Shown in pieces: positions 12,001 through 45,000 of a stretch of DNA of 64,000 bases; the first letter of the stretch is position 1; each line of letters starts with the position of its first letter. Source of the stretch: an uncultured Gemmatimonadales bacterium (GTDB taxonomy: Bacteria; Gemmatimonadota; Gemmatimonadetes; Gemmatimonadales; GWC2-71-9); the NCBI GenBank assembly GCA_963779755.1, contig CAVZZO010000001.1, positions 1,088,001 to 1,152,000 on the forward strand, written 5' to 3'. Position numbers: made by a program.

Positions 12001-15000
12001 GCTCGGCCTGGGCGGCATGGCGACGCGGCGGCTCTTCGTGCTGCTCCCGCGCGAGGGCAAACCGGTGGCGGTGGCGCACAAGATCGAGCTGCAGCCGCTG
12101 GCCGGGTTCCCCGGCGAGGTCCAGCCCTACGCCCGCTGGGAGGAGCTGGAGGCCCGGCTGCGGCCGCTGGTGAACGGCAAACGGTTGGCCATGGAGATTT
12201 CCCCCCGCGACAACGTTCCCTATCTCGATCGGGTTCCCTTCGGCGTGGTGGAGCTGCTGGAGAGCCTGGGGGCCACGGTGGTGCCGTCGGCCGACCTGGT
12301 GACGCGGTTCGCCGCCCGCTGGAGCGACGCGGAACTGCAGGACCACCTCTCGGCTGCGGAGACCATCGCGCAGATCGCGCGCGAGGCGCTGGCCCGGGCG
12401 GTGACGCAGGGGGGCAAGGGGCTGCGGGAGACGGCGATGCAGGCCGAGGTGGTGGCCGCCATGAAAAAGTCGGGGCTGGCGCTGACCGAGCCGCCCATCG
12501 TAGGCTTCGGCCCCAACGCCGCCAACCCGCACTACGAACCACTCGAGGGGCAGGACGCCGAGCTGCGCGAAAACGAAGTCGTGCTGCTGGATCTGTGGGG
12601 CGGCCGCAGCCGCCAGACGGTGTTCGCCGATCAGACCTGGATGGGCTTCTCCGGCCCGACGCCGCCCGCGGAGGTCCAGCGCGTCTGGGAAACCGTGCGC
12701 GACGCGCGGGATGCCGCCGTGACGGTGCTGCGGGAGGCGTGGAAGCGGCGAGAGACCCTGGCCGGCTTCCAGGTGGACCAGGCGGCGCGGGGGGTGATCG
12801 AGAAGGCCGGCTACGGCGAGGCCTTCGTGCATCGGACCGGGCATTCCATCGACCGGGACCTGCACGGCTCGGGTCCCCACATGGACAGCTATGAGACCCG
12901 GGACGAGCGGGCACTGCTCACGGGGATCGGTTTTTCGATTGAGCCTGGGGTTTACCTGACGGGGAATTTCGGAGTCCGCAGTGAAATCAACGTCTATCTG
13001 GGGCCGGATGGCCCGCGGGTGACGCCGGGGGAGCCGCAGGTGGAGCTGATCGTTCCAGGGGCGTAGCCGGTCGAGGGGGTCGAGCGGAGCCTGGCTGGGG
13101 TCCCAGGTTGGTGCATACAAGTCGAGGGGTCGAGGCCGAGCACCCTCTCGACCCTCTCGACCCCCTCGACCCCCTCGACCCCCTCGACCTACTAAGGAAA
13201 GATCCGAGCCCTACGTTTCCACCAGCAACATGTCCACGATCCCCTGGCTCGGTCGTCTTATGGATTTCGAGAGCACTGGAGGCGGGGCATGGCATCGGGG
13301 TGCATCTAGCGTCGTTTCAGAGAGTTACGATCTGAACCCTCGGTGGGTGGCCAGGCGTGACGATTCCTTGACACCGGATTTGGTGTTTCTCATATTGCTT
13401 CACCCGGCCGGGCCGCGGCCGGGCACGTATCGCCAGGTACAATCGTAGTTTTACGCACTTCTGATCCTCTTCAGCAGGTCGTGTAACAGCGCAGTCGCAT
13501 CTCGTTCCCGGCAGACGGGGAGGCCGGGGCGTGCATGCTTGCAGGCCGTCTGGTACGGCAGGAAACTCCAGTGTTCACGCCTTTGGAGGACGCTCTCATG
13601 AAACAAAGTTGTGTAGGCGCCTTCGCGCGCGTAGCGCGGTGGTTCGCGCTCGCGGCAGTGGTGCTGGGCGTCAGCGCGGGTGCGCTGTACGCCCAGGCTG
13701 CTGGTAAAGTTGAAGGCAGAGTCCGCGACCAGGCCGGGGCGCCGATCGCCAATGCCCAGGTGACGCTCGTGGGCTCGGCGTTCGCGACCACGACCAACAA
13801 TCAGGGGTACTACTTCTTCAACAACGTGCCGCCCGGGGTGGTCACCATCCGGGCCGCTTTCGTTGGGTACAAGTCGGCCGAGGCCCGGGACGTCCGGGTG
13901 CTGGCCGGCCAGACCCTCACCCAGGACATCCAGCTGGAGCAGACGCCGTTCCAGGTGGAAGAGATCACGGTGGTGGCCACGGCCACACCGCTGGTGCCGC
14001 GAGACGAAGTCACCACCAAGCAGCGGCTCACCGGCGATTTCGTGACCAAGCTGCCGGCCGACCAGCTCACCAACGTGCTGGCGCTGCAGCCGGGCGTGGT
14101 GGCCAGCGCGGGCGGCGGCACGCTGTCCATCCGCGGCGGCCGGAGCGACGAAGCCTCCACCTACATCGACGGCGTGCCGGTGGATCCGGGCTACCGCGGG
14201 AATGCCTTCGTGGGCATCGGCGGGACCCAGATCAGCGTCGCCACCAACGCCTTCGAGCAGGCGTCGATCACCACCGGCGCCAGCAGCTCGGAGTTCGGCA
14301 ACGCGCAGTCGGGCATCATCAATATCGAAACCCGCACCGGTGGCCAGAGCTTCAGCGGCCAGCTGGGCTTCGAGAGCGACGAGCCCTTCGGCAAGGCCCA
14401 CAGCATCGGCTACAACGCCATCCGGGGCAACCTGGGCGGCCCGATCTACAAGAACCTCACGTTCTTCGTGTCGGGGGCCCTGCTGGGGCAGGCGTCGGCG
14501 ACGAGCGGGCTGCATTCCATCGACTACCCGATCTTCGTGCCGGCGGGGGTGGACACCACGGTGGCCGTGCCCAGCGCCATCAACGATCCGCTGGCCGACA
14601 CCACCATGGTGGCGGTGGAGAAGTACGCCATCTACCGCGGCGACTGCAATGCCTTCAGCGGCAGCACCAATTCCGGTATCGCCGACAACTATGGCAACAG
14701 CTGCCAGGGCATCCGGATTCCCTACAGCGCCAGCACGATCTACCAGCTCAGCGGCAAGCTGAACTACACCTTCGGCACCGGCAGCCGCATCGCGTTGAGC
14801 TACAACGGCAGCCGCAACCAGTCCCGGAACTCGAACTTCTTCAACTTCGAGGATCCCATTCTGCTGTCGGGGAACCGGTCCTGGAGCAACTACTTCACCC
14901 TGAGCTGGACGCAGAACCTGGCCAAGTCCTCCGAGCGGGCGCTGGCGATCGACGCCAACGTCGCCTATCAGATGGACCGCCGGCTCAACGGGCCGATGAC

Positions 15001-42000: not shown

Positions 42001-45000
42001 CACCGATATTCCCGGGTCCGGCCTGGTGGGGCTGCGCCGCCCCGCCTCCTGGAGCCTCAACTACGGGATCACCATCCGGCGCAGCCGGACCGGCACCGAC
42101 TGGCTGACCCGCGGCTTCGTGGATCCGTTCACCTTCAGTGCCGCTCTGGTGCGCGGCCGGACGACCACCGAATACAGCGACGCCGCCCTCTCCAATTCCA
42201 GCTTCAACCTGGCGTACAATCTCCAGCTGCGCCGCCACGGCGTCGGCATCAACCTGGGGGGGCTGGTCGACGCGCTTCCCGGCTGGCTGCGCAACACCGC
42301 CGGCGCCAGGGGCGCGCGCCGCTTCACCCTGGCGCTGGCCCCCACCAGCCTGCGGCTCACCAGCGGGCTCACCCGCACCGAGTCGGATGTCTCGTCCTTT
42401 CTGACCCCGGTGCGGCGGCCGGCCGACAGCAGCGTGGCGGCGGCGGTCAACCTCTCGCACCTGTGGCGGAACAGCGCGTCCATCAATTTCCAGCCGCTGA
42501 CCATGCTCAACCTCTCGGGTGACCTCACCAGCACCCGGGATCTGCGCCACTACGCCGACTCCACCACCCTGGGCCGCCTGGCGGAGCAGGCCCGCACCAG
42601 CTTCCTCGGCACCGACGTGGGGGTGGAACGGGACCGGCAGTTCAGCACCGGGCTCAGCATTACCCCGGTCCTCACCTCCTGGCTCCGCCCGCGCTATATC
42701 ACCGGCAGCTCGTTCATCCTCTCCCGGACGCTCAATTCCCGCCCGCCGGTGCGGCTGGGCGACGACAGCATGGGGGCGTTCATCCTGCCCCAGACGCTGA
42801 ACAACAGCCGCTCCCGGGAATTCGGCCTGACGCTCGACCCGGGCGTCGCGCTGAGCGGGCTGCTGGGCGACAGCAGCTCGCTGGGCAGCGTCCTCAAGCG
42901 TATCCGCCCCCTGGACATCAGCAACCGTCTGGTGCGGTCGTCCACCTACGACCTGGCGGATTTCGAGCCCGATCTGTTCTACATGCTGGGGCTGGGCAAA
43001 CGGGAGGACTTCCTGCACCACCAGGGATCCGATGCGATCGGGGTGGGCGAAACCCGCTCCACCTCCTGGAGCAGCGGCGCCGACCTGCCGTTCGGACTGG
43101 GCTTCACGCTGAGCTACGGACTGGTGCATACCATGCAGTTCCAGCAGGTGGGCGGCAGCCTGGTAGTGACCGATACCCGCCAGCGCGAGTGGCCGGTGGG
43201 AACCTTCCGCCTGACCCACAGTTTCCGCTCCGGCCCCCTGAGCCTGCTCGCCGCCAGTATGAATGTCCGCCGGAAGGAAGGACACACCGATCAGCCGTCG
43301 GCCGGCCGTGTGGTGCGGAGCGGCAACAGCTCCAGCAGTGCCGGCCCCAGCCTGCAGCTGGGCTGGCGCAACGGGCTGGTAATGCTGGTGGGGTACAGTG
43401 ACATCTCCCAGGAAACCGAGAGCAACGGCAACCTGACCCGCTCGCAGCAGGAAGACGTCAACGCCAACCTGAGCTATGCCTTCCGGCTGCCCGGCTCCCT
43501 CAGCCGGTTGCGCAAGCAGGTCCGCGCTTCGCTCTACGGCGTGCTGTCGTCCAACACCAGTTGTCTTCAGCGGCTGGACACGCCCGACTGCACCAGTATT
43601 GCCGATACCCGCCGCACCGAGGTCCGCGGCGGGTTGGATACCGAGGTCTCCCGCATCCTCCAGGCCGGACTGCAGTTCGGCTATTCCGTCAACGACGTCA
43701 AGCAGATCAACTCCAGGATTTCGCAGATCTTCCTCGCGGTGACGCTGCAGTTGAGCCTGTATGCGGGGGACTATCGCTAGGGATCAGGATTCAGGAGTCA
43801 GGATTCAGGGGCATCAGGCCTGAAGATCCAGCTATTATCGCAAGTGTCGGGCTGCCTCAGGGAAGTCCGCACCAATGCGGCGGAGGGGCGGGGCCCTTTC
43901 AATCCCGGATCCTGAATCCTGACCCCTCGCCCCTGAATCCTGACTCCTGAATCCTGACCCCTTAATTATCTTCCGCCCCATGCTTCGAAAACTCATTCTC
44001 CTCGTCGCCACCGCCCTGGTGGCGGCCTGCTCCGAGGCGCCCGCCCAGAAGGAATTCGACGCCGGCGCCTTCCGCTACCTGGAACAGCAGGTGGCGTTCG
44101 GGCCCCGTATTCCGGGGCAGCCCGGCCACACCCGGGAGGCCGCCTGGCTGGACTCCCTGCTGCGGCGGCGGGCCGACACGCTGGTGGTCCAGGCGTTCGA
44201 TCATGTCACCGAGACCGGCGACACGCTGCACCTCACCAATTTCATCGCCCGCTTCAAGCCCGCCGCCTCGCGGCGGATTCTCTACCTGGCGCACTGGGAT
44301 ACCCGTCCCCGTGCCGATGCCGACAGCTCCAAGGACAAGACCGCGCCCGTCCCCGGCGCCAACGACGGCGCCTCCGGCGTCGCGCTGCTGCTGGGCGTGG
44401 CCGATGCGCTGCATCGCAGCGCGCCCGGCGTGGGAGTAGACCTGCTCTTCACCGACGGTGAAGATTACGGCGTCTTTGCCGACAGCGTGGATGTGCTGAT
44501 CGGCTCGAAGTATTACGCCGCCCATCCGGTCGCCGGCGAACGGCCGCTCTTTGCCGTGCTCTGGGACATGATCGCCGACAAGGATCTCAAGATTTACCAG
44601 GAGCAGTATTCCCTGGTGGCCGCCCCCGAGGTGGTCTCCCGGGTCTGGGCCGCCGCCGACCGGCTGGGCTACGGGCAGCATTTCAGCCGCCTCCCCGGGG
44701 TGGCCCTGATCGACGACCATGTGCCGCTCCAGCGGGCCGGCTACAGCGCCATCGATGTGGTCGATTTCGATTACCCCTGGTGGCATACCCCCGAGGACAC
44801 GATCGACAAGGTGAGCGCCGCGAGTCTCAAGATCGTGGGGGATGTGGCGGTGCGGGTCATTCGGACGGTGAAGTAGGATCGAGGAATCCCCGATCCTCAA
44901 TCCCCAATCCTCTTTTCCGGTCCGCTCCGCACTTTCCCGATCCCACCCCGCCGGCGGCGTGCTGGTAGCCTGGGGCATGCGACAGGAACGCCGCGCCATC

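What a model noticed while it worked through the whole genome (the two positions that open the first line are those of the whole stretch)
13598..43780. Motor-less type IX secretion system: SprA plus cargo-PorV-GWxTD operon without PorKLMN
The genome has the T9SS translocon SprA (g00977), two identical PorV copies and two 1.3-thousand-residue cargo proteins ending in a type A sorting domain, arranged TonB-type barrel - cargo - PorV - GWxTD (second cargo-PorV pair at C1:1163785-1169017). No GldK/L/M/N motor or ring gene is found. Gemmatimonadetes thus appear to keep a minimal SprA/PorV export route serving one dedicated, co-encoded cargo.
Evidence so far: Cargo tail passes TIGR04183 cut-off (25.3 vs 23 bits, call 65). 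PorV-CTD model ipSAE 0.77, best of 3 controls 0.00, contacts agree >=82%, partner pLDDT >=66. SprA in 41 of 61 class genomes, GldM in 0 of 61; PorV in 26 of 61, all SprA-positive, none of the 20 SprA-negative. The gene before porV ends in this CTD in 24 of 30 loci and a GWxTD gene follows in 15. No Gld/Por rows in pfam.tsv.
(Added by a program. Inside this text positions count along the whole contig: contig position 1,088,001 is position 1 of the stretch shown here. "Call 12" and the like, gene names such as g00115 and contig names such as C1 are that model's own, and its searches are not shown. The text may have been shortened before it was handed on; [...] marks where a part breaks off. The agent that wrote the report below was given it as the finding of a first reader that could run no searches.)

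Follow-up and report, generated by a model that had tools for sequence, protein, structure and literature searches.

The report
Type IX secretion lacking its motor
This bacterium keeps the outer-membrane gate of a known protein-export machine but lacks the motor thought essential for it, and probably uses the gate to mount a large binding protein beside a nutrient importer; the same motor-free set-up is common in relatives of Bacteroidetes and nobody has tested how it is powered.

Summary
Confirmed. G000 encodes SprA, two protein-identical PorV copies and two type A CTD cargoes in a TonB-dependent transporter (TBDT)-cargo-PorV-GWxTD operon. GldK/L/M/N, PorP, PorU and PorZ were not found, now with a positive control that rang (GldN 37 of 151 Bacteroidota).

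Three corrections. (1) Motor-less SprA is not a Gemmatimonadetes speciality: 97 of 97 SprA-positive Gemmatimonadota and 83 of 120 SprA-positive Bacteroidota lack GldN, and print notes this for Ignavibacterium/Melioribacter. (2) It need not be minimal: sister classes carry 24 to over 43 CTD matches each (one has PorU), and about half of SprA-positive Gemmatimonadetes lack this cassette. (3) G000 has a third, stand-alone CTD protein.

The triplet is widespread among Bacteroidota relatives, appears only with SprA, often lies in sugar-uptake loci, and also occurs in motor-bearing Bacteroidia. The cargo's main domain folds like the beta-supersandwich of glycoside hydrolases, without a catalytic barrel.

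Best reading: a PorV-tethered, SusD-like partner of the transporter, exported by an ancestral motor-free type IX translocon. How cargo leaves SprA is unresolved. This scan found the triplet many times on other DNA; the controlled motor absence is what is added here.

The parts
13368..13396 (+). sigma-70-like promoter match upstream of the operon
   Evidence: TTGACA-17-CATATT, 10 of 12; 2 such sites in the region vs 1.2 expected, so a weak indication only
13598..16924 (+). TonB-dependent transporter, SusC-like architecture: signal peptide, CarboxypepD_reg N-terminal extension, TonB-box-like segment, plug, barrel
   Evidence: Pfam PF13620 E 1e-20, PF07715 E 5e-8; TIGR04056 weak; TonB-box-like stretch read from the alignment, motif assignment from my own knowledge; 69% paralogue at C1:1154424
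17003..20986 (+). 1327-aa cargo / candidate transporter partner: signal peptide, beta-supersandwich (about 17135-18652), FnIII-type module with an insertion (about 18650-19340), variable beta-rich middle, type A CTD (about 20654-20983)
   Evidence: AF2 model of ORF residues 36-1225, pLDDT 89.3, pTM 0.77; model 15-520 matches N-terminal domains of GH15/GH94/GH116 enzymes, best Z 19.0, rmsd 3.1, 255 aligned; FnIII label inferred from strand pattern and conserved motif; CTD 24.4 bits vs 23; 1286 homologues
21054..22181 (+). PorV/PorQ-family carrier barrel, cassette type; identical protein at C1:1167776-1169017
   Evidence: NF033709 139.8 vs 90; below the PorV and PorQ equivalog cut-offs; profile vs PDB 6h3i_F E 2e-20
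22239..23690 (+). GWxTD-domain exported protein: two Ig-like domains plus a helical/alpha-beta GWxTD domain; candidate periplasmic accessory
   Evidence: TIGR04514 78.8 vs 28; AF2 pLDDT 94.9; only generic Ig matches, best Z 12.7, rmsd 2.3, 99 aligned
23768..25423 (+). lipoprotein with Ig-like repeats and a PPC domain, last gene of the operon
   Evidence: PF04151 E 3e-6; lipobox-like signal; follows GWxTD in L031-L035 and L038; terminator-like hairpin 25455-25468
31670..34843 (+). second, unrelated TonB-type barrel between the operon and sprA
   Evidence: PF25183 E 2e-62, PF13620; start; also upstream of lptF-sprA in L058
37670..43780 (+). SprA/Sov translocon, 2036 aa, in the conserved block lptG-lptF (divergent) / sprA - M28 peptidase - comEA - pilB - pilT - pilC
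   Evidence: TIGR04189 507 vs 200; PF14349; PDB 6h3i E 2e-29; synteny in L052, L058, L062, L064, L065

Best explanation
The operon is a three-part outer-membrane import module, and SprA exports its surface part. SHOWN by sequence or model: the genes and domains; no GldKLMN, PorP, PorU or PorZ in G000; the triplet occurs only in SprA-positive genomes. INFERRED: (1) all proteins enter the periplasm by Sec; (2) the cargo's type A CTD binds its own PorV inside the SprA pore, a step that needs no energy in F. johnsoniae; (3) the PorV-cargo pair leaves SprA without a Gld motor, most likely by slow spontaneous release made one-way by capture on the co-encoded TBDT and perhaps helped by the GWxTD protein (weakest step, about 0.4); (4) with no PorU sortase the CTD is never cut, so the cargo stays on PorV as PorZ stays on PorQ; (5) there it acts as a SusD-like binding partner of the TBDT, whose uptake is driven by the genome's single TonB-ExbB-ExbD set. 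The motor-free state is probably the older form of the T9SS, with GldKLMN added in Bacteroidia.
For: GldN 0 of 121 Gemmatimonadota vs 37 of 151 over cut-off in Bacteroidota. Own GldK/L/M/N and PorP HMMs find nothing credible in G000, while left-out members score E 8e-23 or better. PorU none, PorZ none over cut-off. Cassette-type PorV in 76 of 83 SprA+/GldN-, 8 of 37 GldN+ and 0 of 31 SprA- Bacteroidota. TBDT-CTD-PorV order in 19 of 20 fetched Bacteroidota loci, in 18 loci, and in 9 named Ignavibacteria, KSB1 and Bacteroidota loci. Neighbours there include LacI, sugar-binding proteins, GH-like and BNR genes. The same order sits in the Rhodothermus alginate locus (PMC9530828). The cargo core (supersandwich + FnIII + CTD) is shared from 630 to 1330 aa and has no catalytic barrel. 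Loading is energy-independent in F. johnsoniae (PMC10994853).
Against: In F. johnsoniae release of the carrier-substrate pair needs the motor and SprE (PMC10994853), so step 3 contradicts the only studied case. Lineages with dozens of CTD proteins and PorU but no GldN cannot rely on TBDT capture alone. No glycan-degrading genes flank the operon in this window, so the ligand is unknown. The cargo-TBDT contact was not modelled (over the size limit). The CTD passes its cut-off narrowly. PorV_fam also rings in B. thetaiotaomicron, which lacks a T9SS by my recall. Weak CTD-like tails occur in 6 of 24 SprA-negative genomes. Kin are not independent, so the cross-tables rest on few lineage contrasts, and no tree was built for the claim of ancestry.
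Confidence: 0.55

Rival explanations
1. Export is energised, but by a different or unrecognisably diverged machine: TonB-ExbBD, Tol, or an unknown motor, with GWxTD proteins as the periplasmic link that replaces SprE and the GldK/N hub.
For: Release needs energy in F. johnsoniae. GWxTD is in 83 of 83 SprA+/GldN-, 10 of 37 GldN+ and 0 of 31 SprA- Bacteroidota. It follows PorV in 9 of 18 triplet loci and in L233. Earlier scan notes describe cargo-PorV operons fused to ExbB-ExbD-TonB in other phyla (unchecked AI notes).
Against: G000 has only two ExbB/TolQ loci, an ordinary TonB-ExbB-ExbD-ExbD set and Tol-Pal, neither linked to T9SS genes. GWxTD persists in 13 of 24 SprA-negative Gemmatimonadota and is missing in 5 of 97 SprA-positive. 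G000 has 11 GWxTD matches. Top GWxTD genes in Bacteroidota lie next to an Omp85-family gene in 9 of 20 loci and next to no T9SS gene. Among motor-bearing genomes GWxTD tracks the cassette PorV (7 of 8 vs 3 of 29), not motor loss.
Confidence: 0.3
2. The cargo is a T9SS-displayed structural or adhesive surface protein, and the TBDT is only a co-regulated neighbour.
For: Large beta-rich multidomain protein with FnIII and Ig-like parts. The second copy has a diverged middle and is separated from its TBDT paralogue by 6 kb. No glycan genes in this window.
Against: The TBDT directly precedes the cargo in 19 of 20 loci. Glassbacteria-type genomes carry many paralogous triplets, each with its own TBDT. 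The triplet lies in sugar-utilisation loci.
Confidence: 0.1
3. The cargo is not exported by SprA. It stays periplasmic or uses another route, the C-terminal Ig domain is a FlgD-like module, and this SprA has another job (LPS or competence related, given lptFG, comEA and pilBTC neighbours).
For: Marginal CTD score. SprA is about 350 aa shorter than in Bacteroidia and its N-terminal part does not match the model. 39 of 82 SprA-positive class genomes lack the cassette. Conserved synteny with lptFG, comEA and pil genes.
Against: Cassette-type PorV in 0 of 31 SprA-negative Bacteroidota. All 43 class genomes with a cassette-type CTD at E<1e-20 are SprA-positive. SprA-positive genomes without the cassette keep another PorV-family gene and small CTD proteins.
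Confidence: 0.05

Closest known systems
Bacteroidia type IX secretion system (F. johnsoniae SprA-PorV translocon, GldLM motor, GldK/N hub, SprE/SkpA; PMC10994853, passages read)
   Same: Homologous SprA, PorV-family carrier and type A CTD.
   Different: No GldK/L/M/N, PorP, PorU or PorZ found in G000. The carrier is cargo-specific and co-encoded. SprA is 2036 vs 2403 aa. SprE, SkpA, PorD, Plug and PPI were not tested.
SprA-PorV-Plug-only sets of Melioribacter and Ignavibacterium (PMC11705866, passage read)
   Same: Translocon core present without the other T9SS proteins.
   Different: That paper reports it in one sentence for two genera, under a heading of horizontal evolution. Here it is counted with controls in 97 Gemmatimonadota and 83 Bacteroidota genomes and tied to a defined cargo cassette.
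PorZ-PorQ and PorU-PorV pairs; SprB-SprF type B cargo-carrier pairs
   Same: A CTD protein that keeps its tail and is held on a dedicated small barrel (pairs from my own knowledge; type B anchoring also in PMC10994853).
   Different: Type A CTD on a PorV-family paralogue, encoded behind a TBDT. The cargo family matches neither PorZ nor PorU beyond the tail.
SusC/SusD (RagA/RagB) transporter-lid pairs
   Same: SusC-like TBDT followed by a gene for a large exported non-catalytic protein, often in sugar-utilisation loci.
   Different: The partner is not a lipoprotein and has no SusD family hit. It is modelled as a beta-supersandwich protein and would be anchored through CTD-PorV.
Rhodothermus marinus alginate locus tonB - hypA (T9SS type A) - hypB (PorV/PorQ) (PMC9530828, section 18 read) and xylan locus Rmar_1070-1072 (PMC6987092, passages read)
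   Same: Same gene order drawn in print for the alginate locus; the xylan locus lists a TBDT, a CTD protein and an unannotated third gene.
   Different: Left as hypothetical genes with no interpretation. The cargo there is about 726 aa, and I could not compare its sequence.

Membership tests
Type IX secretion system (canonical, Bacteroidia) | SprA/Sov translocon | tested here: met
   TIGR04189 507 vs 200; PDB 6h3i E 2e-29
Type IX secretion system (canonical, Bacteroidia) | PorV-family carrier barrel | tested here: met
   NF033709 139.8 vs 90, but under the PorV (47.5 vs 250) and PorQ (63.5 vs 220) equivalog cut-offs
Type IX secretion system (canonical, Bacteroidia) | Substrates with signal peptide and CTD | tested here: met
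   TIGR04183 24.4 vs 23 locally; own CTD HMM E 1e-50; third CTD-only protein
Type IX secretion system (canonical, Bacteroidia) | GldL/GldM (PorL/PorM) motor | tested here: not met
   TIGR03517 no match; own HMMs: GldM none, GldL best E 0.44; leave-one-out E 2e-66 and 8e-23. Sequence-level test only; genome 97% complete.
Type IX secretion system (canonical, Bacteroidia) | GldK/GldN (PorK/PorN) hub ring | tested here: not met
   GldN none with control 37 of 151; GldK HMM hits only generic FGE-domain proteins, best E 5e-13 vs 2e-99 for left-out GldK
Type IX secretion system (canonical, Bacteroidia) | PorU sortase / PorZ attachment complex | tested here: not met
   NF033707 none; NF052228 none over cut-off: the two CTD tails and two weak fragments; a PorU from G006 passes the same model (615 vs 420)
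Type IX secretion system (canonical, Bacteroidia) | Extended-translocon parts SprE, SkpA, PorD, Plug, PPI | not tested
   No model or sequence for these was in hand
Type IX secretion system (canonical, Bacteroidia) | CTD-dependent export across the outer membrane | not testable with these tools
   Needs fractionation or surface labelling
SusC/SusD pair | SusC-like TBDT with N-terminal extension, TonB box and plug | tested here: met
   PF13620, PF07715; TIGR04056 37.8 bits, far below cut-off 368, so the architecture fits but not the subfamily
SusC/SusD pair | Adjacent SusD-family lipoprotein lid | tested here: not met
   The next gene has a non-lipoprotein signal peptide and no SusD/RagB Pfam or NCBIfam hit
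SusC/SusD pair | Partner caps the barrel and binds substrate | not testable with these tools
   Barrel plus partner domain exceeds the 1000-residue limit of the complex tool
Glycoside hydrolase GH15/GH94/GH116 | (alpha/alpha)6 catalytic barrel after the beta-supersandwich | tested here: not met
   The model has no helical barrel; fold matches cover only model 8-520 and the N-terminal domains of these enzymes

The most novel reading that the evidence does not exclude
The ancestral T9SS of the Bacteroidota-related phyla works with no dedicated motor: SprA, cargo-specific PorV barrels and GWxTD helpers suffice to export folded proteins of over 1000 residues, and the GldKLMN rotary motor is a later Bacteroidia addition. 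Its oldest conserved job is to mount a PorV-tethered beta-supersandwich lid on TonB-dependent transporters, an undescribed alternative to SusD. G000, with two large cargoes and no PorU, is a near-minimal natural version.
Probability: 0.35. Interest if true: 0.85.

Novelty: new variant of a known kind. Interest (0 to 1): 0.58.

Why it matters
The current model holds that pulling the carrier-substrate pair off SprA is the energy-requiring step and needs the GldLM motor (PMC10994853). Yet most SprA-bearing lineages sampled here have no detectable motor gene, including ones with dozens of CTD proteins. Either release can be passive or an unknown energiser exists; both change how the system's mechanism and origin are read. 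A genome with one SprA, one PorV sequence and three CTD proteins defines a small parts list for reconstitution. The triplet also offers a candidate SusD-free uptake system in phyla important for soil and sediment carbon turnover.

Tried and rejected
Complex prediction of PorV with the GWxTD protein gave no answer (ipSAE 0.01 twice, mark 0.32); this is neither support nor evidence against. No RNA holder was listed for the cargo-PorV stretch. A metagenome scan with a single PorU found no relative. Three attempts at a positive control did not ring: a Parabacteroides chromosomal fragment with sprA and porU-porV had no GldM, 24 genomes behind PorV loci had no GldN, and the 113-genome phylum of G131 had none over cut-off (SprA was not searched there). 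The control rang. Fold searches of the GWxTD model listed only generic Ig matches, with no GldM or GldN row; the C-terminal domain was barely tested, so this is inconclusive. GWxTD as an obligatory motor substitute was lowered. An eight-gene cargo-PorV-TPR-ExbBD-TonB operon as in earlier scan notes is not in G000. An era-linked second PorV, common in the class, is absent beside era in G000. The GldK-model hit C1:127906 reads like an EgtB-type protein (label from my own knowledge). ESM Atlas gave only unnamed clusters for the cargo, commonest taxa Ignavibacteriota and Gemmatimonadota, and GWxTD clusters for GWxTD. An assembly duplicate as the cause of the identical PorVs is unlikely because the flanks and the cargo middle diverge, but reads were not checked. 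McBride and Zhu 2013 is not held; from recall it noted missing gld genes in Rhodothermus and Salinibacter, which is unverified. Lasica 2017 (PMC5445135) had no hit for six taxon names.

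
Full report
OBSERVATION. The five-gene operon (TBDT 13598-16924, cargo 17003-20986, PorV 21054-22181, GWxTD 22239-23690, lipoprotein 23768-25423) and sprA (37670-43780) are present on the + strand. Family scores: PorV_fam 139.8 vs cut-off 90, GWxTD 78.8 vs 28, SprA 507 vs 200. SprA matches the solved F. johnsoniae protein at E 2e-29, and a profile of 15 cassette PorVs matches solved PorV at E 2e-20. The cargo tail passes TIGR04183 only when scored locally (24.4 vs 23; whole protein 18.9). A second cargo (77.6%) and a protein-identical PorV lie at C1:1163785-1169017. 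Their DNA is 95.7% alike over 1750 bp with an 851-bp exact block, the cargo middle has diverged, and a 69% TBDT paralogue lies 6 kb upstream beyond unrelated genes; no GWxTD follows. This fits a duplication with recent gene conversion (inference).

IS THE MOTOR ABSENT? TIGR03523 (GldN) found nothing in 121 Gemmatimonadota genomes selected at 90% completeness or more, of which 97 have SprA. The same search in 151 genomes of the phylum of G126 (Bacteroidota) rang over cut-off in 37. From 20 of those gld clusters I built HMMs of 19 to 21 sequences and searched all 36,462 six-frame ORFs of G000 without filters. GldN and GldM gave no hit at E 5 or lower, GldL best E 0.44, PorP/SprF best E 1.5, and GldK only generic FGE-domain proteins, best E 5e-13. 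Left-out true members scored E 5e-27, 2e-66, 8e-23 and 2e-99 or better for N, M, L and K. PorU is not found; the PorZ model gives only the two CTD tails and two weak fragments. G000 is 97% complete. It has two ExbB/TolQ loci, a TonB-ExbB-ExbD-ExbD set and Tol-Pal, neither near T9SS genes. Across the phylum I tested only GldN; GldK, L and M were tested in G000 alone. These are sequence tests, so a non-homologous energiser is not excluded.

HOW SPECIAL IS IT? Not special to this class. In the Bacteroidota sample SprA is in 120 of 151; all 37 GldN-positive genomes have it and 83 have SprA without GldN. So motor-less systems can have large cargo sets. Within the class (106 genomes) a CTD profile gives 0 to 6 matches. 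43 of the 82 SprA-positive class genomes have a cassette-type CTD at E<1e-20 and 39 do not; one of the 39, G041, has a frameshifted cassette. Several of those keep an era-linked PorV-family gene and small CTD proteins. One of these, a signal peptide plus CTD of about 145 aa beside clpB, is also in G000 (C3:172435-171998, E 1e-36), so G000 has three CTD proteins. Against strict linkage: two of 24 SprA-negative genomes have a strong PorV match (G044, G083), and six have weak CTD-like matches. Four of the 24 SprA-negative handles were deduced from the family tallies.

THE TRIPLET. TBDT-cargo-PorV in this order was seen in 18 of the 40 regions, which were chosen around PorV or SprA hits, with GWxTD next in 9 of the 18. 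It was also seen in 9 loci titled Ignavibacteria, KSB1, Bacteroidota or Cytophagia among the 80, and in 19 of 20 Bacteroidota regions chosen around strong cassette-PorV hits, one being cut by a contig end. Cassette-type PorV (E 1e-35 or lower) is in 76 of 83 SprA+/GldN-, 8 of 37 GldN+ and 0 of 31 SprA- genomes; 4 of 5 GldN+ loci fetched show the whole triplet. It therefore depends on SprA but not on motor loss. Neighbours in other lineages include LacI and ROK regulators, sugar-binding proteins, GH-like, GH42 and BNR proteins. The cargo family shares an N-terminal domain, an FnIII-type module and the CTD, in proteins from 630 to 1330 aa. The model of ORF residues 36-1225 is confident (pLDDT 89.3, pTM 0.77). 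Residues 15-520 match the beta-supersandwich at the N-terminus of GH15, GH94 and GH116 enzymes (best Z 19.0, rmsd 3.1, 255 aligned; Foldseek agrees weakly), with no catalytic helical barrel. The rest of the model was barely tested by that search. A shared fold shows no function.

GWxTD. The model (pLDDT 94.9) has two Ig-like domains and a C-terminal domain; only generic Ig matches were listed. In Bacteroidota the domain is in 83 of 83 SprA+/GldN-, 10 of 37 GldN+ and 0 of 31 SprA- genomes, which first suggested a motor substitute. Against that: in Gemmatimonadota it persists in 13 of 24 SprA-negative genomes and is missing in 5 of 97 SprA-positive; top copies lie beside an Omp85 gene in 9 of 20 loci and beside no T9SS gene; and among motor-bearing genomes it tracks the cassette PorV, 7 of 8 vs 3 of 29. 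It looks like an accessory of these outer-membrane modules. Kin are not independent, so no P value is claimed.

MECHANISM. Most likely the cargo is loaded on its own PorV in SprA, released, and held for good on PorV because no PorU cuts the tail; it then serves the TBDT as a SusD-like partner. Loading without energy is shown for F. johnsoniae; release there needs the motor (PMC10994853). Release here is the open step: passive release with capture on the TBDT, or an unrecognised energiser. Nothing here shows secretion, binding or expression.

LITERATURE SEEN. PMC10994853, PMC11705866, PMC11285876, PMC4793230, PMC5837995, PMC6987092: passages found by term search. PMC9530828: a passage and section 18. 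PMC5445135: term search with no hits. PMC11705866 says Melioribacter and Ignavibacterium have PorV, SprA and Plug and no other T9SS protein. PMC11285876 says T9SSs may be present in Gemmatimonadetes. PMC4793230 found T9SS only in Bacteroidetes and did not display Gemmatimonadetes. PMC9530828 draws the triplet as hypothetical genes. I found no paper interpreting the triplet or motor-less export in ten searches; GWxTD had 0 papers. Subscription journals are largely missing, and no supplements were read; T9SS survey tables there could bear on the distribution claim. Earlier notes of this scan describe the same triplet repeatedly on other DNA; they are AI notes, not support.

VERDICT. Real; a new variant of a known kind. 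It works like a T9SS outer-membrane module but fails membership of the canonical system on motor, hub and sortase. The motor-less state is partly anticipated in print and is widespread. Its value is that it makes the energy question testable.

Noticed in passing
G000 C3:172435-171998 (-); homologues L186, L189, L190, L192: Stand-alone signal peptide + CTD protein of about 145 aa, conserved beside clpB and/or selB across Gemmatimonadetes; could be a placeholder or decoy for PorV.
   Followed up: partly
L040, L041, L051, L054, L056, L059, L060: A second PorV/PorQ-family gene directly after era (downstream of rRNA genes in several, upstream of prfB) in many Gemmatimonadetes; absent beside era in G000. 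Its partner is unknown.
   Followed up: partly
L187, L188, L191: A 340-770 aa exported protein with a CTD-like tail (S8-peptidase-like fusion in L191, label from my own reading) beside a metallo-beta-lactamase-fold gene, and after smc in L187 and L188; absent in G000.
   Followed up: no
window 34992-50563; L052, L058, L062, L064, L065: sprA sits between divergent lptF/lptG and an M28 peptidase - comEA - pilB - pilT - pilC run in several classes of the phylum.
   Followed up: partly
L194-L198, L201, L202, L204, L212: In Bacteroidota outside Bacteroidia a GWxTD gene lies directly before an Omp85/POTRA gene in 9 of 20 loci, mostly after a rimO-like gene; suggests a role in outer-membrane protein assembly.
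   Followed up: partly
L133, L137, L143, L145, L149: Records titled Alphaproteobacteria or Puniceispirillum (three of these) carry GWxTD, a C25-peptidase/CTD gene and PorV; L133, L143 and L149 also show a further large CTD-type gene. The record titles may not reflect the true lineage.
   Followed up: no
G000 C3:882079-884952: Third paralogue of the cassette TBDT (42%) that lacks the N-terminal extension and has no cargo or PorV beside it.
   Followed up: no
G000 C3:937698-938588 (-): Short, weak PorV/FadL-like barrel gene (E 9e-6) near dnaE with no CTD neighbour.
   Followed up: no
window 13121-13190: Low-complexity repeat of a 10-base unit (about five copies) in the spacer upstream of the operon promoter.
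   Followed up: no
L071, L072 (NZ_OY725768.1): A PLSDB 'plasmid' of Parabacteroides distasonis is evidently a chromosomal fragment (dxs, efp, ruvA, sprA, porU-porV-ispF).
   Followed up: no
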